Sequence record: PP434423.1
DNA from: Escherichia phage 236Ecol005PP
Direction: 5' to 3' (one strand)
DNA length: 64,000 nucleotides
The notes below the pieces were generated by a model. That model did no database searches. It was given only the letters and a program-made list of their open reading frames with translations, and was not told the DNA's origin. This document shows, piece by piece, positions 42,845 through 64,000 of the stretch (its first letter is position 1; each line of letters starts with the position of its first letter). Made by a program: the position numbers and the translations under genes.

Positions 42845-43544
42845 TTAATTCTTCTACCTTTTTTCTAGTAATTCCTAAAGCTTTAGATGCTCGATGTATT
42901 GATTGATATTCTATACCGTTTATTTTTACAGCAATTAAGTTATGGGGTTTTAATCCCTTTGGATGAGGTTTACTGACGAAAACTAAATTATCAAGCTCTG
43001 AAATCTTATCCAATTTCTTACACTTAAATCCTTTGTGATGCGCCCGTTTACCTTTACAAACGGCTGACATCGCAGATGGATTTAAATTATGCTCTTTACA
43101 AAATTCGTTAAGACCTCGATGAATTTCCTCATGACCATCTGGAAATGTAAACACCCAAGACGTTTGAAGTCGAGATTTAACTTCTGGAGACATAGGAATA
43201 CCTTTGTTCCAGGCCGGTTTGCCTTTATTATTTTCAGATACAGAAATAGCCAATTTTCTTCTAAGCCACCCATGTCGTTTATTGGTGTTCTTTCGTTCAA
43301 TATTATCTTCAGAATAAACACACATCATATTAGCGGCAAATATCAATTTATGATTATCTGGATATATCTTTACTAATAATTGATGAGCTATGTAATGCTC
43401 TTCTGGTGTCAAATCTACCAGGTTTTCCTTTGTATCAGAACCACCAATACACAGAGGTATAATATGATGTGATTCGGTATAGCAATCTAATTTTCTGTTC
43501 TTAGCTTTAGAAATAAGGTTATTGTAAATTTTAGAATAATCCAT
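42834..43544 (-). CDS. HNH homing endonuclease inserted within nrdA
   Basis: 236-aa ORF with HNH motif (HHIIPLCIGGSDTKENLVDLTPEEHYIAH) and C-terminal HTH-like segment; AGAGGA SD upstream; 3' end overlaps start of nrdA C-fragment. Confidence 0.8.
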   Translation of the reverse strand: MDYSKIYNNLISKAKNRKLDCYTESHHIIPLCIGGSDTKENLVDLTPEEHYIAHQLLVKIYPDNHKLIFAANMMCVYSEDNIERKNTNKRHGWLRRKLAISVSENNKGKPAWNKGIPMSPEVKSRLQTSWVFTFPDGHEEIHRGLNEFCKEHNLNPSAMSAVCKGKRAHHKGFKCKKLDKISELDNLVFVSKPHPKGLKPHNLIAVKINGIEYQSIHRASKALGITRKKVEELNEY

Positions 43545-43589
43545 AACTTTTCCTCTTGTTATGGATTATTTATTAACGGTCTGTGTACT
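42834..43589 (-). mobile_element. free-standing homing-endonuclease insertion splitting nrdA
   Basis: HNH ORF plus 45-nt leader lies exactly between the two nrdA pieces; too little non-ORF sequence for a group I intron core. Confidence 0.65.
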
Positions 43590-45023
43590 TTATTTGCTTT
43601 GAATTATACCGCCAGGATTAGCTTCATAAAACTTAGCTACATCCGACTTCTTAATTTTAATTAAACGGGTTTGTTGACTATTCACATCATTTGTTGGAAT
43701 AGCAATTTCACAACACAAGTTACTCTGACGAATAGGTGCTTTTTCACGAATAAATGGAGTATAGTTATTCGTATTATCAATGAACTGCACATAAATCCTT
43801 GCTGTTCCTGAGCGTTCAGTCATTAGCAATTCAAACAGTTCACGGGCTTTAATACGCTTTTTACGAATATTAGGGTCTTTTTCTGCGGCTTCATATAATT
43901 CACGGAAACGGTCTTGGTCTTTAAAATAAGAATAATAAAGCTCACCACCCATTTCATGTGGACTGAACAAAGTAATGTAGTCGTTCTTTCCAAAACGTTC
44001 CATCATCAAATCATTCAGCTGGACGCCATAATCCATATGACGGATACGGTTTTCTTCTACACCTTTGTTATTTTTCAAAACGAGAAGATTTTCAACTTCC
44101 AAATGCCAAATAGGATAATAAGCAGTAGCAGCGCCGCCACGAATTCCACCCTGTGAGCATGATTTAACAGCAGTCTGAAAATGTTTCCAAAAAGGAATAA
44201 CACCAGTATGGCGTACTTCACCTGTACCAATCTTAGAACCTTCGGCACGAATCATACCAACGTTAATACCAATTCCAGCGCGTTTGGAGATATATTCAAC
44301 AATTGAAGCGGAAACCTTATTGATAGACTTCAGCGAATCACCTGCCTCAATAACAACACATGAACTAAACTGTCGAGTCGGAGTACGACAGCCAGCCATA
44401 ATAGGAGTTGGCAATGAAATCTGTCGAGTAGATACTGCTTCATAAAAACGAATAACGTGTTTTAGTCTATCAACAGGTTCATCTTGATGCAATGCCATTC
44501 CAATAGTCATAAATGCAAACTGCGGAGTTTCATAAATTTGACCAGTGGTTTTATCTTTAACTAGATATTTTTCTTTTAATTGCATCGCCCCGGAATAAGT
44601 AAATTCCATATCCCGCTCATGCTTAATTTTTGATTCTAAAAATGTAATTTCTTCTGCTGAATATTTTGACAGCAGTTCAGGGTCATATTTACCTTCATTT
44701 ACACAGTAAGAAATATGGTCAATAAATGAACGTGGTTCATATTGTCCGTAAACATGCTTACGAAGAGCAAACATTAAACAGCGTGCAGCTACATATTGAT
44801 AATCAGGCTCTTCAACTGAAATAGAATTCGCAGCAGCCTTAATTACAATGGTTTGAATGTCATCAGTGGTCATTCCATCACGGAGATATGATTTAATATT
44901 TTCATATAATTCATAAGGATCTACAGATGTTCCTTCAGCTGCCCAAGATAAAACTTTAATAATTTTTTGCGGGTCAAAGCTCTGAGAAACACCACTACTT
45001 TTGATAACATTAATTAATTGCAT
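43590..45023 (-). CDS. nrdA: ribonucleotide reductase large subunit, N-terminal fragment
   Basis: 477-aa ORF with ATP-cone-like N-terminus and active-site motif SNLCCEIAIPT, then a 29-aa Lys-rich non-homologous tail and stop. Confidence 0.85.
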   Translation of the reverse strand: MQLINVIKSSGVSQSFDPQKIIKVLSWAAEGTSVDPYELYENIKSYLRDGMTTDDIQTIVIKAAANSISVEEPDYQYVAARCLMFALRKHVYGQYEPRSFIDHISYCVNEGKYDPELLSKYSAEEITFLESKIKHERDMEFTYSGAMQLKEKYLVKDKTTGQIYETPQFAFMTIGMALHQDEPVDRLKHVIRFYEAVSTRQISLPTPIMAGCRTPTRQFSSCVVIEAGDSLKSINKVSASIVEYISKRAGIGINVGMIRAEGSKIGTGEVRHTGVIPFWKHFQTAVKSCSQGGIRGGAATAYYPIWHLEVENLLVLKNNKGVEENRIRHMDYGVQLNDLMMERFGKNDYITLFSPHEMGGELYYSYFKDQDRFRELYEAAEKDPNIRKKRIKARELFELLMTERSGTARIYVQFIDNTNNYTPFIREKAPIRQSNLCCEIAIPTNDVNSQQTRLIKIKKSDVAKFYEANPGGIIQSK

Positions 45024-45340
45024 AAGTCCTCAACTTGAAAATCGTCTTTAAACAATCGGTTAACTATATGAGCTATTATATCACCATGACACGGCTTTGG
45101 TTTACATGTGCATCCTAGCCTCATTCCACGTAAAGGCTCTAAATGTGCTTTAGTTATTTCTCCGGATTTAATTCGACGTATAAAATCTTTTTTGAATAAT
45201 TCAATGGCAGCCTCCCGGCTGCCAGCATCTTTACCGACGTAATTTCCCCAAAATGTACCGCGGTGAATATTAACATCAAAGTCGGATTTATATTTATTCA
45301 CTACCTGGCATAGACGGCCCGCGCGGTAATAGTTCGTCAT
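45014..45340 (-). CDS. hypothetical Cys-rich protein (108 aa)
   Basis: ORF containing [12 protein letters not shown] segment. Confidence 0.45.
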
Positions 45341-45580: not shown

Positions 45581-45892
45581 TTACACCGCCATTTTTCCTT
45601 TAATAGGAGGGTGTGATTCGTAACCTTTAAGAACGAAATCTTTAGGCCTGAGTTTAAGAGTGTATTCCAATTGTTCTTTAGTAGAAAGATAGCGGAATTT
45701 ATAAGGCAATCCGCCTATTACCAGTTCACAAAGCTCTTTAGGTTCACGACGTAAAATTTCTTTACATTGTTCTACGTGATTCATATAGATATGAGTATTA
45801 CCACCAGAAAATATCAAATCTCCTGGAATAAGATTACACATCTTAGCTACAATATGAACTAACGCAGCATATGATGCAATATTAAATGGAAG
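45581..45892 (-). CDS. td: thymidylate synthase, exon 2
   Basis: Encodes LPFNIASYAALV... (TS C-terminal domain); track ORF start ATG is the last three intron nucleotides. Confidence 0.85.
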   Translation of the reverse strand, partial: LPFNIASYAALVHIVAKMCNLIPGDLIFSGGNTHIYMNHVEQCKEILRREPKELCELVIGGLPYKFRYLSTKEQLEYTLKLRPKDFVLKGYESHPPIKGKMAV

Positions 45893-46146
45893 CATTATGT
45901 TCAGATAAGGTCGTTAATCTTATCCCGGAATTATATCCAGCTGCATGTCACCATACAGATCAGACTATATCTCCATCTTGATGAAGCAAGATGTCTATCG
46001 TTTCGAGTCACTTGACCCTACTCCCCAAAGGGATAGTCGTTAGGCATTTAGTTCAAAAGAACATTTAGCACGGGATTGTCTACTAGAGAGGTTCCCCGTT
46101 TAGATAGATTACAAGTATAAGTCACCTTATACTCAGGCCTCAATTA
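45893..46146 (-). other. group I self-splicing intron in td, ORF-less (about 254 nt)
   Basis: Exon 1 ends ...GTT TTC TTG GGT then TAATTGAGGCCTGAGTATAAGGTGACTTATACTTG...; intron ends ...CTGAACATAATG; both ends match the T4 td intron as recalled; no ORF inside. Confidence 0.8.
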
Positions 46147-46695
46147 ACCCAAGAAAACATCTACACTTCTTTGGTACCATTGTAAATCAAGATAACCATT
46201 ACGCACATTAAACTGATAGAACATATGACAGGGCGGTAATGCCATTTGATTGATTTCAGCTGGATTCCATGCTGAAACGATTTGACGTCGATCAGTTGGT
46301 AATTTTTTAATACGATCAATAGTTTCAACTAATTGATCCACACCACCGAAATCACGCCATTGTTTACCGTATATAGGACCAAGTTCACCACTATGATATC
46401 CTAGGTCTTTAGCCTGGTTTTCATAGTTATCGTCCCAAATAGTTTTACCTTGAATAAGACTACCATGAGTGCGAAGACGTAAATCATTAACATTGGTAGA
46501 ACCGGAAATAAACCATAGAAGCTCAGCAATGCAAGCTTTCCAAGCGAGCTTCTTAGTCGTTACTGCAGGAAAACCTTTAGTTAAATCCCAACGTAATTTA
46601 GTACCGAACAAAGCAATTGTTCCTGTGCCTGTTCGGTCATCGGTTTCATAGCCATTTTCAAAAATGTCTTTAATTAAATCTTGGTATTGTTTCAT
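46147..46695 (-). CDS. td: thymidylate synthase, exon 1
   Basis: 183 codons ending ...PPCHMFYQF...QRSVDVFLG (TS active-site Cys region). Confidence 0.85.
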
Positions 46696-52057: not shown

Positions 52058-55000
52058 ATGGCCGAGATTAAAAGAAAGTTCAGAGCAGAAGATGGTCTGG
52101 ACGCAGGTGGCGATAAAATAATCAACGTAGCTTTAGCTGATCGTACCGTAGGAACTGACGGTGTTAACGTTGATTACTTAATTCAAGAAAACACAGTTCA
52201 ACAATACGATCCAACTCGTGGATATTTAAAAGATTTTGTAATCATTTATGATAACCGCTTTTGGGCTGCTATAAATGATATTCCAAAACCGGCAGGAGCT
52301 TTTAATAGCGGACGCTGGAGAGCATTACGTACTGATGCTAACTGGATCACAGTTTCATCTGGTTCATATCAATTAAAATCCGGTGAAGCGATTTCGGTTA
52401 ACACTGCAGCCGGTAATGATATTACATTTACTTTACCATCTTCCCCAATTGACGGTGACACTATCGTTCTCCAAGATATTGGAGGAAAACCTGGAGTTAA
52501 TCAAGTTTTAATTGTAGCTCCAGTGCAAAGTATTGTAAACTTTAGAGGTGAACAGGTACGTTCAGTACTAATGACTCATCCAAAATCACAGATAGTTTTA
52601 ATTTTTAGTAATCGTCTGTGGCAAATGTATGTTGCTGATTATAGTAGAGAAGCTATAGTTGTAACACCAGCGAATACTTATCAAGCGCAATCCAACGATT
52701 TTATCGTGCGTAGATTTACTTCTGCTGCACCAATTAATGTTAAACTTCCAAGATTTGCTAATCATGGCGATATTATTAATTTCGTCGATTTAGATAAACT
52801 AAATCCGCTTTATCATACAATTGTTACTACATACGATGAAACGACTTCAATACAAGAAGTTGGAACTCATTCCATTGAAGGCCGTACAACGATTGACGGT
52901 TTCTTGATGTTTGATGATAATGAGAAATTGTGGAGATGGTTTGACGGGGATAGTAAAGCGCGTTTACGCATTATAACGACTAATTCTAATATTCGTCCAA
53001 ATGAAGAAGTTATGGTATTTGGTGCGAATAACGGAACAGCTCAGACAATTGAACTTCAGCTTCCTACTGATATCTCTGTTGGTGATACTGTTAAAATTTC
53101 CATGAATTACATGAGAAAAGGACAAACAGTTAAAATCAAAGCTGCCGGTGAAGATAAAATTGCTTCTTCAGTTCAATTGCTGCAATTCCCAAAACGTTCA
53201 GAATATCCGCCTGAAACTAAATGGGTAACTGTTCAAGAATTAGTTTTTAATGGTGAAACTAATTATGTTCCAGTTTTACAACTTGCTTATATAGAAGATT
53301 CTGATGGAAAATACTGGGTTGTACAGCAAAACGTTCCAACTGTAGAAAGAGTAGATTCTTTAAATGATTCTACTAGAGCAAGATTAGGCGTAATTGCTTT
53401 AGCTACACAAGCTCAAGCTAATGTTGATTTAGAAAATTCTCCACAAAAAGAATTAGCAATTACTCCAGAAACGTTAGCTAATCGTACTGCTACTGAAACT
53501 CGTAGAGGTATCGCAAGAATAGCAACTACTGCTCAAGTGAATCAGAACACCACATTCTCTTTTGCTGATGATCTTATCATTACTCCTAAAAAGCTGAATG
53601 AAAGAACTGCTACAGAAACTCGCAGAGGTGTTGCTGAAATTGCTACGCAGCAAGAAACTAATACAGGTACTGATGATACTACAATCATCACTCCTAAAAA
53701 GCTTCAAGCTCGTCAGGGTTCTGAATCATTATCTGGTATTGTAACTTTTGTATCTACTGCAGGTGCTACTCCAGCTTCTAGCCGTGAATTAAATGGTACG
53801 AATGTTTATAATAAAAACACTAATAATTTAGTTGTTTCACCTAAAGCTTTGGATCAGTATAAAGCTACTCCAACACAGCAAGGTGCAGTAATTTTAGCAG
53901 TTGAAAGTGAAGTAATTGCTGGACAAAGTCAGCAAGGATGGGCAAATGCGGTTGTAACACCAGAAACGTTACATAAAAAGACATCAACTGATGGAAGAAT
54001 TGGTTTAATTGAAATTGCTACGCAAAGCGAAGTTAATACAGGAACTGATTATACTCGTGCAGTCACTCCTAAAACTTTAAATGACCGTAGAGCAACTGAA
54101 AGTTTAAGTGGTATAGCTGAAATTGCTACACAAGTTGAATTCGACGCAGGCGTCGACGATACTCGTATCTCTACACCATTAAAAATTAAAACCAGATTTA
54201 ATAGTACTGATCGTACTTCTGTTGTTGCTCTATCTGGATTAGTTGAATCAGGAACTCTCTGGGACCATTATACCCTTAATATTCTTGAAGCAAATGAGAC
54301 ACAGCGTGGTACACTTCGTGTAGCTACACAAGTTGAAGCTGCTGCAGGAACATTAGATAATGTTTTAATAACTCCTAAAAAGCTTTTAGGTACTAAATCT
54401 ACCGAATCGCAAGAAGGTGTTATTAAAGTTGCGACTCAGTCTGAAACTGTAACTGGAACGTCAGCAAATACTGCTGTATCTCCAAAAAATTTAAAATGGA
54501 TTGCGCAGAGTGAACCTACTTGGGCAGCTACTACTGCGATAAGAGGCTTTGTTAAAACTTCATCTGGTTCAATTACATTCGTTGGTAATGACACAGTTGG
54601 TTCTACACAGAACTTAGAGCTATACGAGAAAAATAGCTATGCAGTATCACCATATGAATTAAACCGCGTATTAGCAAATTATTTGCCGTTAAAAGCAAAA
54701 GCCGCTGACACAAATTTATTGGATGGTCTAGATTCATCCCAGTTCATTCGTAGGGATATTGCACAGACGGTTAATGGTTCACTAACCTTAACCCAACAAA
54801 CGAATCTGAGTGCCCCTCTTGTATCATCTAGTACTGCTACGTTTGGTGGATCAGTTTCGGCAAATAGTACATTAACTATTTCTAATACTGGAACGGCAAC
54901 TCGTCTGATTTTTGAGAAAGGACCTCAGACTGGAACTAACCCAGTACAGACGATGACTATCAGAGTTTGGGGAAATCAGTTTGGTGGCGGTTCAGATACA

Positions 55001-55927
55001 ACACGTTCTACTGTATTTGAAGTTGGTGATGAAACTTCTAATCACTTTTATTCTCAACGTAATAAAGCTGGGAATATAACGTTTAGTATCAATGGTACTG
55101 TGATGCCGATAAACGTTAATGCTTCGGGTTCTTTGAACGCGGGCGGCGTTGCAACATTTGGTAGTTCAGTTACTGCTAATGGTGAATTCATCAGCAAGTC
55201 TGCAAATGCCTTTAGAGCTATTAATGGTAATTACGGATTCTTTATTCGCAATGATGGCACTAATACCTATTTTTTGCTCACTGCATCTGGTGATCAGACT
55301 GGCGGATTTAATGGATTACGTCCTTTAGCTATTAACAATCAGTCCGGTCAAGTAACGATTGGTGAAAGCTTAATCATTGCCAAAGGTGCTACTATAAATT
55401 CAGGTGGTTTGACTGTTAACTCGAGAATTCGTTCTCAAGGCACTAAAACATCTAATTTATATACTCGTGCACCAACATCTGATACTGTAGGATTCTGGTC
55501 AATCGATGTTAATGATTCAGCTACTTATAACCAGTTCCCAGGTTATTTTAAAATGGTTGAAAAAACTAATGAAGTGACTGGACTTCCATACTTAGAACGC
55601 GGAGAAGAGGTTAAATCTCCTGGTACATTGACTCAGTTTGGTAACACACTTGATTCGCTTTACCAAGATTGGATTACTTATCCAACGACTCCAGAAGCAC
55701 GTACCACTCGCTGGACACGCACATGGCAGAAAACCAAAAACTCCTGGTCAAGTTTTGTTCAGGTATTTGACGGAGGTAACCCTCCTCAACCATCTGATAT
55801 TGGTGCTTTACCATCTGATAATGCTACAATGGGGAATCTTACTATTCGTGATTTCTTACGAATTGGTAATGTTCGCATTATTCCTGACCCAGTGAATAAA
55901 ACGGTTAAATTTGAATGGGTTGAATAA
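52058..55927 (+). CDS. 34: long tail fiber proximal subunit
   Basis: 1289-aa ORF with repeated TPKKL.../ATQ-type fiber repeats; T4 gp34 length. Confidence 0.9.
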   Translation: MAEIKRKFRAEDGLDAGGDKIINVALADRTVGTDGVNVDYLIQENTVQQYDPTRGYLKDFVIIYDNRFWAAINDIPKPAGAFNSGRWRALRTDANWITVSSGSYQLKSGEAISVNTAAGNDITFTLPSSPIDGDTIVLQDIGGKPGVNQVLIVAPVQSIVNFRGEQVRSVLMTHPKSQIVLIFSNRLWQMYVADYSREAIVVTPANTYQAQSNDFIVRRFTSAAPINVKLPRFANHGDIINFVDLDKLNPLYHTIVTTYDETTSIQEVGTHSIEGRTTIDGFLMFDDNEKLWRWFDGDSKARLRIITTNSNIRPNEEVMVFGANNGTAQTIELQLPTDISVGDTVKISMNYMRKGQTVKIKAAGEDKIASSVQLLQFPKRSEYPPETKWVTVQELVFNGETNYVPVLQLAYIEDSDGKYWVVQQNVPTVERVDSLNDSTRARLGVIALATQAQANVDLENSPQKELAITPETLANRTATETRRGIARIATTAQVNQNTTFSFADDLIITPKKLNERTATETRRGVAEIATQQETNTGTDDTTIITPKKLQARQGSESLSGIVTFVSTAGATPASSRELNGTNVYNKNTNNLVVSPKALDQYKATPTQQGAVILAVESEVIAGQSQQGWANAVVTPETLHKKTSTDGRIGLIEIATQSEVNTGTDYTRAVTPKTLNDRRATESLSGIAEIATQVEFDAGVDDTRISTPLKIKTRFNSTDRTSVVALSGLVESGTLWDHYTLNILEANETQRGTLRVATQVEAAAGTLDNVLITPKKLLGTKSTESQEGVIKVATQSETVTGTSANTAVSPKNLKWIAQSEPTWAATTAIRGFVKTSSGSITFVGNDTVGSTQNLELYEKNSYAVSPYELNRVLANYLPLKAKAADTNLLDGLDSSQFIRRDIAQTVNGSLTLTQQTNLSAPLVSSSTATFGGSVSANSTLTISNTGTATRLIFEKGPQTGTNPVQTMTIRVWGNQFGGGSDTTRSTVFEVGDETSNHFYSQRNKAGNITFSINGTVMPINVNASGSLNAGGVATFGSSVTANGEFISKSANAFRAINGNYGFFIRNDGTNTYFLLTASGDQTGGFNGLRPLAINNQSGQVTIGESLIIAKGATINSGGLTVNSRIRSQGTKTSNLYTRAPTSDTVGFWSIDVNDSATYNQFPGYFKMVEKTNEVTGLPYLERGEEVKSPGTLTQFGNTLDSLYQDWITYPTTPEARTTRWTRTWQKTKNSWSSFVQVFDGGNPPQPSDIGALPSDNATMGNLTIRDFLRIGNVRIIPDPVNKTVKFEWVE

Positions 55928-55935
55928 GAGGTATT

Positions 55936-57051
55936 ATGGAAAAATTTATGGCAGAGTTTGGACAAGGATATGTCCAAACGCCATTTTTATCGGAAAGTAA
56001 TTCAGTAAGATACAAAATAAGTATAGCGGGTTCTTGCCCGCTTTCTACTGCAGGACCATACGTTAAATTTCAGGATAATCCTGTCGGAAATCAAACATTT
56101 AGCGCCGGTCTTCATTTAAGAGTTTTTGACCCTTCTACAGGAGCATTAGTTGATAGTAAGTCATATGCTTTTTCGACTTCAGATGATACTACATCAGCTG
56201 CTTTTGTTAGTTTCATGAATTCTTTGACGAATAATAGACTTGTTGCTATATTAACTAACGGAAAAGTTAATTTTCCTCCTGAAGTAGTATCTTGGATAAG
56301 AACCGCAGGAACGTCTGCTTTTCCATCTGATTCTATATTGTCAAGATTCGACGTATCATATGCTGCTTTTTACACTTCTTCTAAAAGAGCTATTGCATTA
56401 GAGCATGTTAAATTAAGTAATAGAAAAAGCACAGATGATTATCAAACTATTTTAGATGTTGTATTTGACAGTTTAGAAGACGTTGGAGCTACAGGATTTC
56501 CTAAAAGAACATACGAAAGCGTTGAGCAATTTATGTCGGCAGTTGGTGGAACTAATAACGAAATTGCGCGATTACCAACTTCAGCTGCTATAAGTAAACT
56601 CTCTGATTATAATTTAATTCCTGGCGATGTGCTTTATCTTAAAGCTCAATTATATGCTGATGCTGATTTACTTGCGCTTGGAACTACAAATATATCTATC
56701 CGTTTTTATAATGCATCTAACGGATATATTTCCTCGACACAAGCTGAGTTTACCGGACAAGCTGGGTCTTGGGAATTAAAGGAAGATTATGTAGTTGTTC
56801 CAGAAAATGCTGTGGGATTTACGATATATGCACAAAGAACTGCACAAGCCGGTCAAGGTGGTATGAGGAATTTAAGCTTTTCTGAAGTGTCAAGAAATGG
56901 AGGTATTTCGAAACCTGCTGAATTTGGCGTCAACGGCATTCGTGTTAATTATATCTGTGAATCTGCTTCACCTCCGGATATAATGGTACTTCCTACGCAA
57001 GCATCGTCTAAAACTGGTAAAGTGTTTGGGCAAGAATTTAGAGAAGTATAA
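55936..57051 (+). CDS. 35: long tail fiber hinge connector
   Basis: 371-aa ORF following gene 34. Confidence 0.8.
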   Translation: MEKFMAEFGQGYVQTPFLSESNSVRYKISIAGSCPLSTAGPYVKFQDNPVGNQTFSAGLHLRVFDPSTGALVDSKSYAFSTSDDTTSAAFVSFMNSLTNNRLVAILTNGKVNFPPEVVSWIRTAGTSAFPSDSILSRFDVSYAAFYTSSKRAIALEHVKLSNRKSTDDYQTILDVVFDSLEDVGATGFPKRTYESVEQFMSAVGGTNNEIARLPTSAAISKLSDYNLIPGDVLYLKAQLYADADLLALGTTNISIRFYNASNGYISSTQAEFTGQAGSWELKEDYVVVPENAVGFTIYAQRTAQAGQGGMRNLSFSEVSRNGGISKPAEFGVNGIRVNYICESASPPDIMVLPTQASSKTGKVFGQEFREV

Positions 57052-57054
57052 ATT

Positions 57055-57080
57055 GAGGGAGCCTTCGGGTTCCCTTTTTC
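57055..57080 (+). terminator. intrinsic terminator after gene 35
   Basis: GGGAGCC-TTCG-GGTTCCC hairpin plus T-run. Confidence 0.5.
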
Positions 57081-57082
57081 TT

Positions 57083-57090
57083 TATAAATA
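57083..57090 (+). promoter_or_regulatory. T4-type late promoter (TATAAATA) upstream of gene 36
   Basis: TATAAATA about 25 nt upstream of ATG. Confidence 0.5.
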
Positions 57091-57113
57091 CTATTAAAAT
57101 AAAGGGGCATACA

Positions 57114-57776
57114 ATGGCTGATTTAAAAGTAGGTTCAACAACTGGAGGCTCTGTCATTTGGCATCAAGGAAATTTTCCATTGAATCCAGCCGGTGACGAT
57201 GTACTCTATAAATCATTTAAAATATATTCAGAATATAATAAACCACAAGCTGCAGATAACGATTTCGTTTCTAAAGCTAATGGTGGTACTTACGCCGCGA
57301 CCGTTCGATTTAATGGAGGAGTACATGTTCCTACTATAGGTAGTAGTCAACAGTGTGGTGTTTATCCAGGTAACGGTGATGCAGCTACTTTTGCTATGGC
57401 AAATATTGACATCGTTTCGTGGAATGGTATTGGTTTTAAATCATCACAAGGTTCAGCAGACCGAACTGTTGTTGTTAACACTCGTACTGGTGATATCAGC
57501 ACTAAGGGTGGTATTTATGCAACTGGACCCGTCCGTTCTAACGTTACGGCTCCAGTTGCAGCAAATGACCTTACTAGAAAGGACTATGTTGATGGAGCAA
57601 TAAATACTGTTACGGCAAATGCGAACTCTAGAGTGTTACGATCTGGCGACACTATGACGGGTAACTTAACCGCACCAAACTTTTTCTCGCAGAATCCTGC
57701 ATCTCAACCTTCACACGTTCCACGATTTGACCAAATCGTAATTAAGGATTCTGTTCAAGATTTCGGCTATTATTAA
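57114..57776 (+). CDS. 36: long tail fiber distal connector
   Basis: 220-aa ORF, T4 gp36 size/position. Confidence 0.8.
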
Positions 57777-57784
57777 GAGGACTT

Positions 57785-60700
57785 ATGGCTACTTTAAAAC
57801 AAATACAATTTAAAAGAAGCAAAACCGCAGGTGCACGTCCTGCTGCTTCAGTATTAGCCGAAGGTGAATTGGCTATAAACTTAAAAGATAGAACAATTTT
57901 TACTAAAGACGATTCAGGAAATATCATTGATCTAGGTATTGCTAAAGGCGGTCAAATTGATGGAAATGTGACTATTGATGGAACTTTACGCGTCAATGGA
58001 CCAATAAACAACTTTGGAAATTTTTCTACAAGTGGTACTATCACGGCAAGTAATATTGTTTCTGCTACAGTATTCAGATCAACATCCGGTTCATTTTATA
58101 CAAGAGCAATAAATGATACAGCAAATGCCCATCTTTGGTTTGAAAATACAAATGGATCAGAGAGAGGTGTTTTATATTCAAAACCACAGTCTGAAAATGA
58201 AGGCGTAATTACAATGCGTGTTCGCCAAGGAACCGCAGCAGGGGCTCAAAATTCAGAATTTCATTTCATTTCTACTGATGGCGGTATCTTCCAGGCACGC
58301 AAATTAACTGCTTTAACTTCTATTAGTACACCAACTATTAGTGTTAATTTAATTAATCATGATTCTAAAGCCTTTGGACAATATGATTCACAATCTTTGG
58401 TCAACTATGTTTATCCTGGAACCGGTGAAACAAACGGTATAAACTATCTTCGTAAAGTTCGCGCTAAAGCTGCCGGAACCATGTGGCACGAAATCTGTAC
58501 AGCTCAGACCGGCCAAGCAGATGAAATGTCTTGGTGGACAGGTAATACTCCATCATCTAAACAATATGGCATTCGTAATGACGGACGAATGGCAGGCCGT
58601 AATAGCCTTGCATTAGGTACATTCACTACGGGTTTCCCGTCTAGTGATTATGGTAACGTCGGTGTAATGGGCGATAAGTATCTTGTTCTCGGTGACACTG
58701 TAACCGGTCTGAAATATATTAAGCAAGGTGTTTATGATTTAGTTGGTGGAGGTTATTCCGTTGCATCTATTACCCCGGATAGTTTCCGTAGTACTCGTAA
58801 AGCAATATTTGGACGCTCAGAAGACCAAGGTGCAACATGGATTATGCCTGGAACCAACGCTGCGGCTTTATCGGTTCAAACACAAGCTGATGAAAACACT
58901 GCTGGAGACGGCCAGACACATATTGGCTATAACTCAGGCGGTAAAATGAACCACTATTTCCGTGGTAAAGGCAAAACTAATATTAATACTCAAGAAGGCA
59001 TGGAAGTTAACCCGGGTATTCTTAAACTAGTAACCGGTGCTAACAGTATTAGCTTTAACGCTGCAACAGGTAATATTGATTCTACATTAGCTTTTCGTCT
59101 TAATAAAGGTATAATTATTGATGGACCTGATAATCAGGGATTCCAATTTAATGCTCCGACGGCTGTAGATGGTACTAGAAGCATATACTGGAATAGTGGC
59201 ACTCGCGCAGGTCAAAACAAAAACCCTGTTACAGTTAAAGTGTGGGGTAATTCATTTAACGCATCTGGTGATCGTAGTCGTGAAACCGTTTTTGAAGTAG
59301 CTGATGGGCAAGGTTACCATTTTTATTCTCAACGCGTAGCTCCTGCACCTGGTTCGACTGTCGGGCCTATTCAACTCCGAGTTAATGGTGGTTTATTAAC
59401 TTCAGGTAGTATTGTTACTTCTGGTTCTATTACAACCGAATCAAGCTTAGTTGCAAATAATGGATTGTCTGTAAATGGACAAGCTAAATTTGGCGGAACA
59501 GCAAACGCACTAAGAATTTGGAACGCTGAATATGGTGCTATTTTCCGTCGTTCGGAAAGTAACTTTTATATTATTCCAACCAATCAAAATGAAGGCGAAA
59601 GCGGAGACATTCACAGCTCTTTGAGACCTGTGAGAATAGGATTAAACGATGGCATGGTTGGGTTAGGAAGAGATTCTTTTATAGTAGATCAAAATAATGC
59701 TTTAACTACTATAAACAGTAACTCTCGCATTAATGCCAACTTTAGAATGCAATTAGGACAAAACGCTTATATAGATATTGAAGCTTCTGACGGCATTCGT
59801 CCAGCAGGGTGTGGTTCATTTGCATCCCAGAATGACGTAAACGTCAGAGCTCCAATTTATATGAATATAGAGCGTACTGCTACTTCTGAATATATTCCTA
59901 TTGTTAAACAGCGTTATGTGCAAGGTGATAGCACTTATTCTATTGGGACATTAATTAATCAAGGAGATTTCCGTGTTCATTATCACCAGGGAACTAGCAC
60001 CAATGGCGTAGATTTGAGTTGGGAATTCCGTCGCACAGGCGATTTCCGCGCGGCAGGTAAAATTATTGCCGGTGCTGCTACTCTTGGCACTGATGGTAAT
60101 ATCACGGGCGGTTCAGGAAACTTTGCTAACTTGAATACAACTTTAAACCGTAAAGTGAATTCTGGTTTTATTACTTATGGAGCAACTGCAGGTTGGTACA
60201 AGTTTGCAACAGTAACAATGCCTCAAGCTACATCAACCGTTTCAATTACAGTCACTGGCGGAAATGGATTTAATTCTGGATCATTTAATCAGTGCGCAAT
60301 TTCTGAAATTGTTCTTCGTACAGGAAACAATAATCCTAAAGGATTAAATGCTGTTCTATATAGAAGAGGACTAAATTCATTTAGAGATATTGCTTGGGTT
60401 AATACATCTGGTGATACATATGACATTTATGTTAATATGGGAACATATGCTAATCAGTTGATATTTAACTATAGTTCTGTTGATAACGCTACAGTTCAAA
60501 TTATTGGCGCATTCAGTTCAGCCCAAAATCCTGTTGATGCATTGCCAGGAACATATATTAAAGGTCAGGTAGCAGATGTATTAACTAACTTAGTTGATTC
60601 TGGAAAAACGAAACGTTTTGTTGCTGAATCTGAAATAGCTGTTAATAATCAAACTGGATTACGTATTACGAGTAATGGTGATAAATCTGGTTCAAATTCA

Positions 60701-61708
60701 GTATTATTCAGAAATGACGGTGGAAGTTTCTATATTTTACTGACCGACAAAAACTCTTCAGACGGCGATAATAAAGCAACTGAAGGTGATTGGAATGGAA
60801 AACGACCGTTTTCAATTGATATGACTGCTGGTACTGTTCGTCTTGGCGAAAATACTTCTTTTAGTAAAGATGTTACTATTGATGGAAACATTAATTCACG
60901 AGTTAAAGTTGTCGGACAGTGGAATGTTAGCTTTTCTGATATTTCAGATGTGACTCGTGACCGTTCTGCATTTTTAGTGAATACGGGTGCTATAACAGCT
61001 ACAAGCCAATCTTATTATCCATTGTTTTCTGGGTATAGTTATTTGAAAGATACTGGATATTGTCAATCATTTGAATTTGGATGGTTAGGTGTTTCTGGTA
61101 CTTGGCGTCAAGGCATTATTCGCATGCGTGGTGACAGTACATCAGGGCAACAGGCTCGTTGGACTTTTGATATGGACGGAACATTTTATGCTCCTATACT
61201 ATCATGCGGATCTGCGAGAGCATTCGGTGTCAATACATCAAATGGTCTCGGTGGAAACAGTATAACATTTGGTGATAGCGATACTGGTATTAAGCAAAAT
61301 GGCGATGGATTATTAGACATATATGCGAACAACGTACAAGTATTCCGTTTCCAAAATGGCGATTTGTACTCATATAAAAATATAAATGCTCCAAACGTTT
61401 ATATTCGTTCTGATATTCGTTTAAAATCCAACTTTAAACCTATCGAAAACGCACTTGATAAAGTTGAAAAACTTAACGGTGTCATTTACGATAAAGCTGA
61501 ATACATCGGTGGAGAGGCAATTGAAACTGAAGCGGGTATTGTGGCTCAAACTTTACAAGACGTTTTACCAGAAGCTGTCCGTGAAACAGAAGACAGTAAG
61601 GGTAATAAAATACTCACTGTTTCTTCTCAAGCCCAGATTGCTCTTCTGGTTGAAGCTGTGAAAACACTTTCTGCTCGTGTAAAAGAACTTGAATCTAAAC
61701 TTATGTAA
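57785..61708 (+). CDS. 37: long tail fiber distal subunit, T2-type with C-terminal chaperone-like domain
   Basis: 1307-aa ORF (longer than T4 gp37, 1026 aa as recalled); C-terminal about 110 aa (...[26 protein letters not shown]...LESKLM) resembles self-cleaving intramolecular chaperone domains. Confidence 0.85.
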
Positions 61709-61709
61709 A

Positions 61710-61738
61710 AGAGGGCTTCGGCCCTCTAAGGATTTTTA
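61710..61738 (+). terminator. hairpin/terminator between genes 37 and 38
   Basis: AGAGGGC-TTCG-GCCCTCT hairpin followed by T-rich run; gene 38 ATG follows immediately. Confidence 0.5.
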
Positions 61739-62521
61739 ATGGCAATTGTAGGTGTTCCTGGCTGGATTGGCGAATCTGCCGTGAATGAAACTGGACAACG
61801 TTGGATGGATGCTGCGATGAAAGCAGTTCGTGTTTCAGTTCCCGGTTGGATGAGCTCAATGGCTGGACAATCTAAAGAAATACATTACAGCATTGGTGCT
61901 AGCAATTCTTATAATAAAGACACACTAATAAATTGGATAAAAGCTCAAGGAAGTACTCCTGTTGTTATTACAATTACAGGCAATATCGTTTCTCACTCTA
62001 CCGGCGTTCCGTGTCTGGATTTCCCTAGTTCGTTGACCAACGCATATGTTACGTTGATCATTAACTCCGGTGTGACTGTCTATGGACGCGGTGGCAATGG
62101 TGGTAGTAACGCTGGTGGTGGCGCTGGTGGTAACGCAATTAATAATGGCATCGGTACACGCTTGCGTATTACGAATAATGGTGCAATCGCTGGAGGTGGT
62201 GGCGGTGGTGGCGGCGGTAACTACGGTAGACTATCATTTGGTGGTGGTGGTGGTCGCCCATTCGGTGCTGGCGGGTCTTCCAATCATATGAGTTCCGGTG
62301 CAACCGCTGGCTCCATTTCCGCTCCAGGTAAAGGATCTGCTGGTGAGGGGTCTCTTCATGTATATAAAGGCGGGAATGGCGGTGAAGTTGGCTCTGCTGG
62401 AGGAAGATGTAATATTCAAGGGAACGGTACAGAATATAACGGCGGCGCAGCAGGTAAAGCTGTTACTGGTAATGCTCCAACTTGGACTAAAGTTGGTACA
62501 ATATATGGTTCAAGAGTATAA
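61739..62521 (+). CDS. 38: T2-type tail fiber adhesin with glycine-rich motifs
   Basis: 260-aa ORF with multiple Gly runs (GRGGNGGSNAGGGAGGNA, GGGGGGGGGNYGRLSFGGGGGRPFGAGGS, GGNGGEVGSAGGR) typical of T2/K3-type gp38. Confidence 0.8.
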   Translation: MAIVGVPGWIGESAVNETGQRWMDAAMKAVRVSVPGWMSSMAGQSKEIHYSIGASNSYNKDTLINWIKAQGSTPVVITITGNIVSHSTGVPCLDFPSSLTNAYVTLIINSGVTVYGRGGNGGSNAGGGAGGNAINNGIGTRLRITNNGAIAGGGGGGGGGNYGRLSFGGGGGRPFGAGGSSNHMSSGATAGSISAPGKGSAGEGSLHVYKGGNGGEVGSAGGRCNIQGNGTEYNGGAAGKAVTGNAPTWTKVGTIYGSRV

Positions 62522-62552
62522 TTTTGAATAAATATCCTTAAAAGGAGGGTCT

Positions 62553-63209
62553 ATGGCAGCACCTAGAATATCATTTTCGCCCTCTGATATTCTGTTTGGT
62601 GTTCTAGATCGCTTGTTCAAAGATAACGCTACCGGGAATGTTCTTGCTTCCCGGGTAGCTGTCGTAATTCTTTTGTTTATAATGGCGATTGTTTGGTATA
62701 GGGGAGATAGTTTCTTTGAGTACTATAAGCAATCAAAGTATGAAACATACAGTGAAATTATTGAAAAGGAAAGAAATGCACGCTTTGAATCTGTCGCCCT
62801 GGAACAACTCCAGATAGTTCATATATCATCTGAGGCAGACTTTAGTGCGGTGTATTCTTTCCGCCCTAAAAACTTAAACTATTTTGTTGATATTATAGCA
62901 TATGAAGGAAGACTACCTTCAACAATAACCGAAAAATCACTTGGAGGATATCCTGTTGATAAAACTATGGATGAATATACAGTTCATTTAAATGGACGTC
63001 ATTATTATTCCAACTCAAAATTTGCTTTTTTACCGACTAAAAAGCCTACTCCCGAAATAAATTACATGTACAGTTGTCCATATTTTAATTTGGATAACAT
63101 CTATGCTGGAACAATAACCATGTACTGGTATAGAAATGATCATATAAGTAATGACCGCCTTGAATCAATATGTTCTCAGGCGGCCAGAATATTAGGAAGG
63201 GCTAAATAA
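62553..63209 (+). CDS. t: holin
   Basis: 218-aa ORF with single N-proximal TMD (VAVVILLFIMAIVWY) and large C-terminal domain; T4 T size/position. Confidence 0.85.
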   Translation: MAAPRISFSPSDILFGVLDRLFKDNATGNVLASRVAVVILLFIMAIVWYRGDSFFEYYKQSKYETYSEIIEKERNARFESVALEQLQIVHISSEADFSAVYSFRPKNLNYFVDIIAYEGRLPSTITEKSLGGYPVDKTMDEYTVHLNGRHYYSNSKFAFLPTKKPTPEINYMYSCPYFNLDNIYAGTITMYWYRNDHISNDRLESICSQAARILGRAK

Positions 63210-63482
63210 TTATTTGTTTGTATACATCTCTAGATATCGATATACACCCTCAAAACCCTCGTTGAATTCGTCGATGAGGGTTTTCTTATTTTCTTGGGTT
63301 AATTCAGAAACAATTTTACGGAATGAATTCTGATTCAACTTTCTACCTTCATGCGTTACTCCAATCTCATTCAGAAATGCGATAAAATTAACACGATTCT
63401 CAACAATATCTTCTCTGGAAAATTTAATCAAAATAGATGCAACAGTAATAATTTCACGAACTGTATCAATGTTTTTATTCAT
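63210..63482 (-). CDS. asiA: anti-sigma-70 factor
   Basis: 90-aa ORF MNKNIDTVREIITVASILIKFSRED... matches T4 AsiA as recalled. Confidence 0.85.
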   Translation of the reverse strand: MNKNIDTVREIITVASILIKFSREDIVENRVNFIAFLNEIGVTHEGRKLNQNSFRKIVSELTQENKKTLIDEFNEGFEGVYRYLEMYTNK

Positions 63483-63643
63483 TAACTACACCACTCAATT
63501 AGTTGACTTTATTATAATATCATCAGACGCTTGATTTGTAAACTGGTCTGTGTTATTTTCTTCAAAAATTTTTTCTACGAATTCCTTGAACGACTCACGT
63601 TCCTGAGCTACATTATGCTCGATTACCTTTTCAAGATTATGAC

Positions 63644-63922
63644 TCATTCGAAATAATCTTCAATTTCGTAATCATGGACATAAATCATTATAGTTTTTAA
63701 TACATCATCAATACTTTTTCCTGGAGCTGGAATTACGTAAAAATATCCTGCTTTTGAGAGGTCTTTATAAGTTCCAACCAAGAAATCATTATTCTCAAGA
63801 TGTAGTTCTTCAACTAATTCATCGACAATTGAGTGGTATAAATTTGGTAGAAACTTATATAGCTTTTCTAGAATGTCAATTTTGATTGTATATTGAACCA
63901 CAGATTGAGAATCAATAATCAT
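63644..63922 (-). CDS. arn: possible anti-restriction nuclease Arn
   Basis: 92-aa acidic ORF in the expected position next to asiA; identity not verified. Confidence 0.45.
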   Translation of the reverse strand: MIIDSQSVVQYTIKIDILEKLYKFLPNLYHSIVDELVEELHLENNDFLVGTYKDLSKAGYFYVIPAPGKSIDDVLKTIMIYVHDYEIEDYFE

Positions 63923-64000
63923 AGACCTTCCCCTTATGTTTCTGTTTGCGATTAGATTCTTTAAACGCTTTCTTCTTATCTTTATGAACAGAAGCTTTAT

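What the first reader, a model, noticed from the sequence alone, without database searches (positions are those of the whole stretch)
61739..62521. gp38 adhesin with glycine-rich motifs flanking variable segments
The 260-aa gp38 has at least four Gly-rich runs separated by short variable stretches, which is the architecture of T2-type receptor-binding adhesins; the variable segments would determine outer-membrane receptor choice. The Gly runs also produce GC-rich codon repeats (ggtggtggc...) that invite recombination and slippage, and the terminator-like hairpin directly upstream could tune the gp37:gp38 ratio.
Basis: partly seen in the sequence, partly recalled or inferred. Interest (0 to 1): 0.4.

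Follow-up and report, generated by a model that had tools for sequence, protein, structure and literature searches.

The report
K3-type gp38 tail-fibre adhesin gene
This is an ordinary, already deposited T2/K3-type phage tail-fibre tip adhesin (gp38) that most likely binds the E. coli outer-membrane protein OmpA, although its receptor-contacting loops carry a variant for which I found no receptor test.

Summary
Window 61739-62521 (+) encodes a 260-aa T2-type gp38 adhesin (Pfam GP38 1.5e-69 plus Gp38_N). It lies between gene 37 and holin gene t in a Tequatrovirus-like genome. The predicted structure (pLDDT 93.5) matches the solved S16 and PP01 adhesins, and nothing resembles the T4 gp38 chaperone. 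Across 77 homologues, conserved glycine motifs alternate with hypervariable loops.

The identical protein is already in GenBank (WWT49818.1, phage 236Ecol005PP). It is 93% identical to gp38 of K3, the classic OmpA-specific phage. In the hypervariable loops it is 72-79% identical to five OmpA-dependent adhesins tabulated, 42-46% to Tsx binders, and 8-18% to FadL, OmpC or OmpW binders. I predict OmpA (about 0.75).

The caveat is a linked loop variant, Y162 with H207/V208. Every receptor-tested relative I examined has R162 with S207/A208.

Mosaic patterns support cassette recombination. Slippage is not supported, because no insertions relative to the window fall inside the glycine runs.

The upstream hairpin is real and conserved, with compensatory changes, and is present even in T4, where it belongs to gene 38's ribosome-binding site. 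Its T-run is not conserved, so a terminator role is unsupported.

Low novelty.

The parts
61739..62521 (+). Gene 38: 260-aa T2/K3-type tail-fibre tip adhesin (receptor-recognizing protein).
   Evidence: ORF. Pfam GP38 PF05268 (1.5e-69) plus Gp38_N PF21721 (7e-18). PDB 6f45_D at 3.7e-51. Exact match to WWT49818.1. 93% identical to K3 gp38 (P07876).
61739..61873 (+). N-terminal attachment domain (aa 1-45) with three Trp (W9, W22, W37) that should plug into the gp37 trimer tip.
   Evidence: Gp38_N hit over aa 1-42. W9 and W22 are at least 90% conserved in 77 homologues. The model has helices at 10-18, 23-29 and 38-41. The role of the three Trp comes from the S16 structure description (PMC6851490).
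62084..62470 (+). Polyglycine-II sandwich region (aa 116-244; aa 132-151 are a beta-helix turn in between). It holds the Gly-rich motifs and the five distal loops.
   Evidence: Gly is 38.5% here and the entropy profile alternates. The model has pLDDT above 90 and almost no regular secondary structure here, as expected for PGII helices. Foldseek matches to 6f45_D and 9v85.
62105..62122 (+). Loop A / HVS1 (aa 123-128, SNAGGG).
   Evidence: Entropy 2.1-2.6 bits. Equivalent to PP01 loop-A. G126 and G128 differ from K3, which has A at both.
62192..62218 (+). GRM3: nine-Gly run (aa 152-160) encoded by mixed GGA/GGT/GGC codons.
   Evidence: TRF finds a 9-nt period, 3.1 copies, at 62191-62218. Codons listed. 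Near-invariant columns. The only exact 14-20 nt matches to the divergent alleles T2 and RB68 within the receptor-binding C-terminal half of the gene lie here.
62219..62239 (+). Loop B / HVS2 (aa 161-167, NYGRLSF). This is the short form typical of K3-type OmpA adhesins, but with Y162 instead of R.
   Evidence: Alignments. 66 of 77 homologues carry an insertion here. Haplotype table.
62240..62254 (+). GRM4: five-Gly run (aa 168-172) encoded as (GGT)5. It is the only pure trinucleotide repeat in the gene.
   Evidence: TRF finds TGG x5.3 at 62239-62254. Codons.
62276..62305 (+). Loop C / HVS3 (aa 180-189, SSNHMSSGAT).
   Evidence: Entropy 2.4-2.9 bits. N182 differs from K3, which has S.
62330..62368 (+). 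Loop D (aa 198-210, KGSAGEGSLHVYK). It has the four-residue GEGS-type insertion shared by OmpA binders and absent from Tsx binders. A201, H207, V208 and K210 differ from K3.
   Evidence: Alignment. Entropy 2-3.3 bits. Differences from K3. Haplotypes.
62405..62440 (+). Loop E / HVS4 (aa 223-234, RCNIQGNGTEYN).
   Evidence: Entropy 1.4-3.5 bits. Aligned to PP01 loop-E.
61710..61727 (+). Conserved 7-bp C(UUCG)G-type hairpin between the gene 37 stop (61706-61708) and the gene 38 ribosome-binding site.
   Evidence: -13.4 kcal/mol. Present in 10 of 10 T-even phages, T4 included, with compensatory changes in 3 of 6 consensus pairs. The T4 homologue is the 'split SD' hairpin of gene 38 (PMC3014915).
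61728..61732 (+). Shine-Dalgarno-like AAGGA, 6 nt upstream of the gene 38 ATG and directly 3' of the hairpin.
   Evidence: Read directly from the sequence and compared with relatives.
57785..61708 (+). Gene 37: 1307-aa distal half-fibre. Its tip, once the C-terminal intramolecular chaperone domain (aa 1209-1266, nt 61409-61582) is removed, is where gp38 docks.
   Evidence: Pfam Peptidase_S74 (3.7e-15) and Gp34_trimer. The C-terminal 155 aa align to S16 gp37 chain 6f45_A at 8.5e-12. T2 gp37 processing is cited in PMC3157838.
57083..57090 (+). T4 late-promoter consensus TATAAATA upstream of gene 36. It is the likely start of the 36-37-38 late transcript.
   Evidence: Motif search. It is the only exact match on either strand in 54000-64000. 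The transcript assignment is my inference.
62553..63209 (+). Gene t (holin), the conserved downstream neighbour.
   Evidence: Pfam Phage_holin_T at 1.6e-116.

Best explanation
Window 61739-62521 encodes the monomeric receptor-binding tip (gp38) of the long tail fibre of a T4-like (Tequatrovirus) coliphage. It is the T2/K3 adhesin type, not the T4 chaperone type. The inferred mechanism, taken from the solved S16 and PP01 homologues, runs as follows. Genes 36, 37 and 38 are made late in infection. The gp37 trimer folds with the help of its own C-terminal S74-type chaperone domain, which is then cut off. One gp38 molecule caps the trimer through its three-helix N-terminal domain (W9, W22, W37). 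A beta-helix carries a three-layer lattice of polyglycine-II helices built from about 10 Gly-rich motifs. That rigid, invariant lattice presents five short hypervariable loops (A-E; aa 123-128, 161-167, 180-189, 198-210, 223-234) to the cell surface. Those loops choose the outer-membrane protein receptor. By loop lengths and loop sequence, this allele belongs to the K3 group ('type 2' OmpA adhesins of Lutz et al. 2025). The predicted primary receptor is therefore the extracellular loops of E. coli OmpA. The allele is a mosaic. Its N-terminal and beta-helix parts are shared with Tsx-binding adhesins, and its loop cassette is shared with OmpA binders that sit on unrelated backbones. This fits cassette exchange by recombination in or near the conserved Gly-coding stretches. 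The hairpin just upstream is a conserved element of the gene 37-38 junction. It more probably acts on gene 38 translation initiation or mRNA stability than on transcription termination.
For: Family and fold: Pfam GP38 plus Gp38_N. Full-length phmmer match to S16 gp38 6f45_D at 3.7e-51, and to PP01 gp38 9v85. AF2 model with pLDDT 93.5 and pTM 0.87. Foldseek gives 6f45_D at E 9.5e-22, TM 0.79/0.83, and 9v85 at E 3.7e-19.

Context: gp35, gp36, gp37 (with the S74 domain), gp38 and t in canonical order. The gp37 C-terminus aligns to S16 gp37.

Architecture: Gly motifs are invariant and the loops carry 2-3.5 bits of entropy over 77 homologues. dN/dS against PaulHMueller is 0.03 for aa 1-115 and 0.46 for aa 152-236.

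Receptor: 93% identity to K3 gp38, UniProt P07876. K3 is OmpA-specific (PMC3157838; Table S1 of bioRxiv 10.64898/2026.04.02.716166). Identity at HVS2-4 loop positions is 79% to K3, PaulHMueller/Bas45 and FL18, 77% to RB49, and 72% to EV240. All five are experimentally OmpA-dependent. It is 42-46% to the Tsx binders T6, WilhelmHis and FriedrichMiescher, 18% to T2 (FadL), 16% to PP01 (OmpC) and 8% to RB68 (OmpW). The window shares the short loop B and the GEGS insertion in loop D with the OmpA set. A host mutant resistant to 310Ecol104PP (gp38 91.5% identical) carries an ompA frameshift (PMC11510089). Replacing gp38 from HVS2 onwards with the EV240 sequence is sufficient to switch a Tsx phage to OmpA.

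Mosaicism: per-segment nucleotide identities are.

Hairpin.
Against: No receptor experiment exists for this allele. All eight receptor-tested K3-type adhesins I could examine (K3, Bas45, RB49, EV240, FL12, FL18, and 310Ecol104PP by resistant mutant) have R162 in loop B and S207-A208 in loop D. The window has Y162 and H207-V208, and also K210, A201 and N182. Single loop substitutions are known to switch receptors in this family: RB51 Q206L changes OmpF to OmpW, and a few residues separate PST from T6. An 82%-identical relative, FriedrichMiescher, uses Tsx, so overall identity alone does not predict the receptor. The assembly steps and the 3:1 gp37:gp38 stoichiometry are carried over from S16 and T2, not shown here.
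Confidence: 0.75

Rival explanations
1. It is the same adhesin, but the Y162 / H207-V208 loop variant has changed specificity. It might recognise a different set of OmpA loop alleles than K3, or a different outer-membrane protein altogether.
For: Positions 162 (loop B) and 208 (loop D) are almost perfectly linked in 89 distinct K3-type sequences: R162 with S-A, Y162 with [W/S/H]-V, and one exception. Both haplotypes occur on several backbone classes (7 and 6 of 8), which suggests a functional unit rather than drift. In PP01, loop B and loop D are structurally coupled, since Y159A perturbs Y209 and loop E. I found no Y-type adhesin with a tested receptor. H207 occurs only in this protein and in one 98%-identical metagenomic sequence. 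Receptor switches through single loop residues are documented.
Against: Loop lengths and most loop residues are those of OmpA binders. HVS identity to OmpA binders is 72-79%, against 46% or less to anything else. Lutz et al. found that variation within one adhesin type changes which OmpA alleles are accepted, not which protein is bound.
Confidence: 0.22
2. The upstream hairpin is a partial intrinsic terminator that lowers gene 38 transcription relative to gene 37, and so sets the 3:1 gp37:gp38 ratio.
For: A GC-rich 7-bp stem with a UUCG loop is followed by a T5 run, and the consensus scan flagged it. The required stoichiometry is three gp37 per gp38 (S16 structure). In RB49, where gene 38 sits elsewhere in the genome, a hairpin with an adjacent T-run also precedes it.
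Against: The T-run starts 5 nt after the stem, and those 5 nt are the Shine-Dalgarno sequence. The T-run is absent in T6, EV240, WilhelmHis, RB68, PP01 and T4, while the hairpin is kept with compensatory changes. T4 has the same hairpin in front of a chaperone-type gene 38, where it works by bringing the SD and AUG together (PMC3014915). The scan finds 3 terminator-like sites where shuffles give 1.7 +/- 1.5.
Confidence: 0.15
3. The Gly-codon repeats make the gene a slippage-prone contingency locus that varies loop or Gly-run length.
For: (GGT)5 lies at 62240-62254 and a 9-nt periodic run at 62191-62218. Gly-run lengths differ among homologues, 7-10 and 4-5.
Against: Among 77 homologues, none of the ten insertion sites relative to the window lies inside the Gly runs. 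They fall after residues 34, 49, 72, 103, 122, 124, 125, 128, 162, 164, 181, 182, 204 and 228, that is, in or at the edges of the hypervariable segments or in the N-terminal half. The run-length differences I looked at arise from substitutions. The G9 run uses mixed codons, and the longest internal exact repeat is 13 nt. The Gly columns are invariant, as expected for a tightly packed PGII lattice.
Confidence: 0.05
4. The ORF is a T4-type gp38 assembly chaperone and not part of the virion.
For: It occupies the same map position as T4 gene 38. Several database records of close homologues are still labelled 'distal long tail fiber assembly catalyst'.
Against: BLASTP against T4 gp38 gives E = 45. 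There is no tail-fibre-assembly Pfam hit. The fold matches the S16 and PP01 adhesins. The gp37 here carries its own S74 chaperone domain.
Confidence: 0.01

Closest known systems
gp38 of coliphage K3 (UniProt P07876), the classic OmpA-specific adhesin; also PaulHMueller/Bas45 and 310Ecol104PP
   Same: All are 260 aa with no gaps. The window is 93% identical to K3 (242/260), 93.5% to Bas45 and 91.5% to 310Ecol104PP. Loop lengths, N-terminal domain, flanking gp37 C-terminus and hairpin are the same.
   Different: There are 18 substitutions against K3. Eleven fall in the five distal loops: G126, G128, Y162, R164, S166, N182, A201, H207, V208, K210 and I226. Three more (N213, E216, S219) match the EV240/T6 lineage instead, which points to a small recombinant patch at nt 601-690.
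gp38 of Salmonella phage S16 (PDB 6F45, in complex with the gp37 tip) and of E. coli O157 phage PP01 (PDB 9V85)
   Same: Three-domain fold: helical attachment domain, beta-helix and polyglycine-II sandwich with five distal loops. Foldseek gives TM 0.73-0.86 and about 43% identity.
   Different: Both of those bind OmpC. Their loops are unrelated in sequence to the window's (16% identity at HVS positions for PP01).
Tsx-binding adhesins with the same backbone (FriedrichMiescher/Bas39, PinkRuby, slur02 group)
   Same: 90-98% nucleotide identity over codons 1-90 and 231-260, and 82% overall protein identity.
   Different: The central loop cassette is replaced. Loop B is YYSPFSQMKLTF, five residues longer, and loop D lacks the GEGS insertion. 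Nucleotide identity is 53-67% over nt 451-630. The receptor is Tsx, not OmpA.
T4 gp38 (tail-fibre assembly chaperone)
   Same: Same map position between genes 37 and t, and the same upstream UUCG hairpin.
   Different: The protein is unrelated (E = 45). T4 gp37 itself carries the receptor-binding tip. In T4 the SD lies 5' of the hairpin (split ribosome-binding site). In the window the SD lies 3' of it.

Membership tests
T2-type gp38 adhesin (Pfam PF05268 GP38 + PF21721 Gp38_N) | Sequence matches both family profiles above the curated cut-offs over the full length. | tested here: met
   234.6 bits (cut-off 25) over aa 47-260, and 64.8 bits (cut-off 25) over aa 1-42.
T2-type gp38 adhesin (Pfam PF05268 GP38 + PF21721 Gp38_N) | Three-domain fold with a beta-helix and a polyglycine-II sandwich, as in PDB 6F45 and 9V85. 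| tested here: met
   AF2 model with pLDDT 93.5. Foldseek 6f45_D at E 9.5e-22, TM 0.79/0.83, and 9v85_C at E 3.7e-19. No other PDB fold has E below 1. This is a prediction, not a solved structure.
T2-type gp38 adhesin (Pfam PF05268 GP38 + PF21721 Gp38_N) | About 10 conserved Gly-rich motifs alternating with hypervariable segments in the C-terminal half. | tested here: met
   Entropy profile over 77 homologues: about 0 bits in the Gly motifs and 2-3.5 bits in five segments.
T2-type gp38 adhesin (Pfam PF05268 GP38 + PF21721 Gp38_N) | Three conserved Trp in the N-terminal attachment domain that dock onto the gp37 trimer. | tested here: met
   W9, W22 and W37 are present. W9 and W22 are at least 90% conserved. 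W37 is replaced by Y in the RB49 group. Docking itself was not tested.
T2-type gp38 adhesin (Pfam PF05268 GP38 + PF21721 Gp38_N) | Gene lies directly downstream of a gene 37 whose product ends in a removable intramolecular chaperone domain. | tested here: met
   gp37 has Peptidase_S74 at aa 1209-1266 and aligns to S16 gp37. Cleavage was not tested.
T2-type gp38 adhesin (Pfam PF05268 GP38 + PF21721 Gp38_N) | The protein is present in the virion as a monomer at the fibre tip and is needed for adsorption. | not testable with these tools
   Needs virion proteomics, electron microscopy and genetics.
K3-type (Lutz 'type 2') OmpA-specific gp38 | Short 7-residue loop B with no insertion after the G9 run, and the GEGS-type four-residue insertion in loop D. 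| tested here: met
   The window has NYGRLSF and ..GSAGEGSLHVY... The same lengths occur in K3, Bas45, RB49, EV240, FL12 and FL18. Tsx, FadL, OmpC and OmpW binders differ.
K3-type (Lutz 'type 2') OmpA-specific gp38 | Signature loop residues of the receptor-tested members (R162; S207-A208-Y-T210). | tested here: not met
   The window has Y162 and H207-V208-Y-K210. 25 of 94 K3-type sequences carry the Y162/xV variant, and I found none of them with a tested receptor.
K3-type (Lutz 'type 2') OmpA-specific gp38 | Infection depends on OmpA. | not testable with these tools
   Inferred only from relatives.
T4-type gp38 tail-fibre assembly chaperone | Sequence similarity to T4 gp38 or the tail-fibre assembly protein family. 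| tested here: not met
   BLASTP E = 45. No such Pfam hit at E <= 0.01.
Rho-independent terminator (for the hairpin at 61710-61727) | GC-rich stem-loop followed immediately by a U-tract, conserved among relatives. | tested here: not met
   The stem is present and conserved. The T5 run starts 5 nt after the stem and is absent in 6 of 10 relatives.
T4 gene 38 'split' translation-initiation region | Hairpin lies between the Shine-Dalgarno sequence and the AUG, shortening their effective spacing. | tested here: not met
   The hairpin is homologous in position and sequence to the T4 one. In the window, however, the SD (AAGGA, 61728-61732) lies 3' of the hairpin at normal spacing.

The most novel reading that the evidence does not exclude
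The linked loop-B/loop-D variant carried here (Y162 with H207-V208, against R162 with S207-A208 in every receptor-tested K3-type adhesin I examined) could be a distinct, horizontally shuffled specificity cassette. It might retarget the K3-type adhesin to a different set of OmpA surface-loop alleles, or to another outer-membrane protein. In that case sequence-based receptor predictors trained only on R-type adhesins would misjudge its host range.
Probability: 0.22. Interest if true: 0.35.

Novelty: already known. Interest (0 to 1): 0.15.

Why it matters
gp38 is the main host-range determinant of most T-even phages, so a correct receptor call matters for designing phage cocktails and for engineering. 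This case adds nothing new in kind. The exact protein is already in GenBank with the right annotation. Its family has two crystal structures and large receptor-mapping data sets. One point is of practical use. The window allele belongs to a sub-variant of the OmpA-type loops (Y162 / xV208) that is fairly common in public data (25 of 94 K3-type sequences examined). As far as I could find, no receptor-tested phage carries it. It would therefore be a cheap and sensible addition to receptor-mapping panels.

Tried and rejected
1. T4-type chaperone: rejected.

2. Looking for the source genome in the local phage collection. The best 8-kb match is only about 91%, and accession PP434423 is not held. 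Identity was obtained instead from an exact protein look-up.

3. Lutz 'type 1' OmpA adhesins (R165-V-H-S-G-A in loop B): the window's loop B does not resemble this. FL18 and FL12 (type 2) match instead.

4. Searching the literature and the supplementary tables of the 2026 receptor-prediction preprint for a receptor-tested Y162-type adhesin. Most genomes there are listed as 'submitted', so the OmpA phages LZ9, LZ10, M1, Ox4, K5 and TP7 could not be typed.

5. Hairpin as a stand-alone stable structure: z = -1.6, which is not significant alone. The case for it rests on conservation and covariation.

6. Group I intron inside split nrdA: none detected at E <= 1.

7. I could not measure the distance between loop B and loop D in the AF2 model, because coordinates are not exposed. 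The coupling argument therefore rests on the PP01 paper.
Full report
**What is there**

Window 61739-62521 (+) is a 260-aa ORF. It matches Pfam GP38 (PF05268, 1.5e-69, aa 47-260) and Gp38_N (PF21721, 7e-18, aa 1-42). Upstream on the same strand lie gp35 (55936-57051), gp36 (57114-57776) and a 1307-aa gp37 (57785-61708). The gp37 ends in a Peptidase_S74 intramolecular chaperone domain (aa 1209-1266). Downstream lie the holin gene t (62553-63209) and, on the other strand, asiA. Over 8 kb the DNA is about 91% identical to many Tequatrovirus genomes such as ECO78, JK1, Shfl2 and Kha5h. An exact-sequence look-up shows the protein is already public as WWT49818.1, 'receptor-recognizing protein', Escherichia phage 236Ecol005PP, on a 167,705-bp contig. 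The accession PP434423.1 is given in a preprint. That record is not in the local phage collection.

**Check of the observation**

- Glycine makes up 38.5% of residues 116-245 and 9.6% of residues 1-115.
- There are about nine or ten Gly motifs rather than four. This agrees with the 10 glycine-rich motifs that form polyglycine-II helices in the S16 gp38 crystal structure (PMC6851490).
- In an alignment of 77 homologues (53-98% identical), the Gly motifs are invariant or nearly so.
- Five intervening segments reach 2-3.5 bits of column entropy: aa 123-128, 161-167, 180-189, 198-210 and 223-234.
- These five segments align with receptor loops A-E of the PP01 gp38 structure.
- GC content is 53% in this half of the gene, against 36% for the window.

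**Fold and family**

phmmer finds S16 gp38 (6f45_D, 3.7e-51, nearly full length) and the PP01 gp38 receptor-binding domain (9v85, 3.3e-34). An AlphaFold2 model built on the 77-sequence alignment is confident (pLDDT 93.5, pTM 0.87). Its only significant PDB neighbours are those two structures (E 9.5e-22 and 3.7e-19, TM 0.73-0.86).

It comes back negative: BLASTP against T4 gp38 gives E = 45. The C-terminal 155 residues of gp37 align to the S16 gp37 fragment that carries gp38 in 6F45 (8.5e-12). The three Trp that dock S16 gp38 onto gp37 are present here as W9, W22 and W37.

**Which receptor**

The 90%-identity cluster of the nearest relatives contains UniProt P07876, gp38 of phage K3. The window protein is 93% identical to it, 242/260 with no gaps. 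K3 is the classic OmpA phage (PMC3157838; Table S1 of bioRxiv 10.64898/2026.04.02.716166).

Other close relatives with experimental receptor data:
- PaulHMueller/Bas45: 93.5% identical; ompA-dependent and complemented.
- 310Ecol104PP: 91.5% identical; a resistant host mutant has an ompA frameshift (PMC11510089).
- RB49: 86% identical; OmpA.

Overall identity is not a safe guide. The 82%-identical FriedrichMiescher/Bas39 and PinkRuby adhesins use Tsx. I therefore compared only the loop positions of HVS2-4:

| Reference adhesins | Receptor | Identity to window at loop positions |
|---|---|---|
| K3, Bas45, FL18 | OmpA | 79% |
| RB49 | OmpA | 77% |
| EV240 | OmpA | 72% |
| T6, WilhelmHis, FriedrichMiescher | Tsx | 42-46% |
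| T2 | FadL | 18% |
| PP01 | OmpC | 16% |
| RB68 | OmpW | 8% |

The OmpA binders score 72-79% even though their N-terminal halves range from 22% to 99% identity to the window. The window also shares the two length signatures of the OmpA set. These are a short seven-residue loop B, where 66 of 77 homologues carry an insertion, and a four-residue GEGS-type insertion in loop D. FL12 and FL18 place this group in Lutz's 'type 2' OmpA adhesins. Those accept only some natural OmpA variants. Exchanging gp38 from HVS2 onwards for the EV240 sequence is enough to convert a Tsx phage to OmpA. I therefore predict OmpA with about 0.75 confidence.

**The caveat, and the one mildly new point**

Of the 18 differences from K3, 11 lie in the five distal loops. 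The dN/dS ratio against Bas45 is 0.03 for aa 1-115 and 0.46 for aa 152-236.

Two of the changed positions form a linked pair. Among 94 K3-type sequences (89 distinct), R162 in loop B goes with S207-A208 in loop D (68 sequences). Y162 goes with [W/S/H]207-V208 (25 sequences). There is one exception. Both combinations occur on several N-terminal and beta-helix backbone classes (7 and 6 of the 8 classes).

Every receptor-tested member I could inspect is R-type. The window is Y-type, with the rare H207 seen otherwise only in one 98%-identical metagenomic sequence. In PP01, loop B and loop D are structurally coupled. Single loop substitutions can switch receptors in this family. A shifted OmpA-allele range, or less probably a different receptor, therefore cannot be excluded.

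**Recombination and slippage**

The gene is a mosaic.
- FriedrichMiescher (Tsx) is 90-98% identical in nucleotides over codons 1-90 and 231-260, but only 53-67% over nt 451-630.
- EV240 (OmpA) shows the reverse: 37-70% in the first 480 nt and 80-88% from the G9 run to loop E.
- In nt 601-690, EV240 is closer to the window than K3-like Bas45 is.
- In the C-terminal half of the gene, the only exact 14-20 nt matches to divergent alleles (T2, RB68, WilhelmHis) lie in the G9 and G5 coding runs.

This agrees with the published view that exchanges occur in or near the conserved motifs (PMC3157838).

Slippage gets no support. None of the insertion sites relative to the window among the 77 homologues lies inside the Gly runs. 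The G9 run uses mixed codons. The only pure repeat is (GGT)5, and the longest internal exact repeat is 13 nt.

**The hairpin**

AGAGGGC-TTCG-GCCCTCT (61710-61727, -13.4 kcal/mol) sits between the gene 37 stop and an AAGGA Shine-Dalgarno sequence 6 nt before the ATG. A hairpin at this position is present in all 10 T-even genomes compared. Three of the six consensus pairs show compensatory double changes.

The hairpin is also present in T4, whose gene 38 is the unrelated chaperone. There it is the documented 'split' ribosome-binding-site hairpin, which brings the SD and AUG from 22 nt to 5 nt apart (PMC3014915). In the window and other T2-type phages the SD lies after the hairpin, so that exact mechanism does not carry over.

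The T-run that made it look like a terminator begins 5 nt after the stem. It is missing in T6, EV240, WilhelmHis, RB68, PP01 and T4. I read the hairpin as a conserved element of the 37-38 junction acting on translation initiation or mRNA stability. A terminator role that sets the gp37:gp38 ratio is possible but unsupported (about 0.15). The only exact late-promoter consensus (TATAAATA) in the last 10 kb lies at 57083, upstream of gene 36. This fits co-transcription of genes 36-37-38, which is my inference.

**Verdict**

This is a correct, well-described but ordinary feature. It is a K3-type gp38 adhesin, already deposited and correctly annotated, in a family with solved structures and large receptor data sets. 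Interest is low. The residual novelty is the Y162/xV208 loop variant, for which I found no receptor test.

Noticed in passing
window 45941-46156 (-): A compact group I intron (Rfam RF00028, 72.7 bits, full model in 216 nt, no room for a homing-endonuclease ORF) interrupts the thymidylate synthase gene td. The exons are the ORFs at 46144-46695 and 45581-45895. T4's td intron, from my own knowledge, is about 1 kb and encodes I-TevI. About 36 phage records share this compact form over at least 80% of a 401-nt query.
   Followed up: partly
window 41855-45023 (-): The ribonucleotide reductase large-subunit gene nrdA is split into two ORFs: 477 aa at 43590-45023 and 329 aa at 41855-42844. The Pfam barrel-domain profile breaks at position ~220 of 523. 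An I-HmuI-like HNH homing-endonuclease ORF (42834-43544) lies between the two pieces. No group I intron was detected there at E <= 1. This looks like a 'gene in pieces' arrangement of the kind I recall being described for Aeromonas phage Aeh1 nrdA. About 34 phage genomes, including FL12, FL33/34 and Yersinia fPS-90, have the same insertion, annotated as two nrdA CDSs plus a homing endonuclease.
   Followed up: partly
window 41020-41811 (-): A 263-aa D12-class N6-adenine DNA methyltransferase (Pfam PF02086, 1.2e-23, DPPY motif) lies just downstream of the split nrdA. I did not check whether this is the phage's only dam-like gene.
   Followed up: no
window 45014-45340 (-): A 108-aa DUF4326 protein (Pfam 1.3e-21) is wedged between nrdA and td. 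Its function is unknown.
   Followed up: no
L013:2-3502 (Logan SRR16777242 contig) and 87 PLSDB plasmids, e.g. NZ_CP034066.1: K3-type gp38 adhesins about 80% identical to the window protein occur on 106-120 kb non-mobilizable plasmids of E. coli, Shigella, Enterobacter, Citrobacter and Salmonella. They have the R162/SA loops and are preceded by a gp37-like fibre with an S74 domain. Next to them lie ParA, DnaB and TacA/GNAT toxin-antitoxin genes, which suggests phage-plasmids. The T-even fibre-tip module is therefore shared with temperate plasmid-prophages.
   Followed up: partly
window 62493-62552 (gene 38 - t junction): T4 and RB68 have an exact late-promoter TATAAATA in front of t. The window and most T2-type relatives have AATAAATA at that site (GAATAAATATCC), one mismatch from the consensus. 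Whether t still has its own late promoter here is open.
   Followed up: no
L003:1440-1490 (RB49) and L011 (AV108): In Krischvirus, gene 38 has moved about 55 kb away from gene 37. Even so, a GC-rich hairpin (GCCCC-TTAATT-GGGGC) still sits directly upstream of its ribosome-binding site, here with an adjacent T-run. A hairpin seems to travel with gene 38.
   Followed up: no
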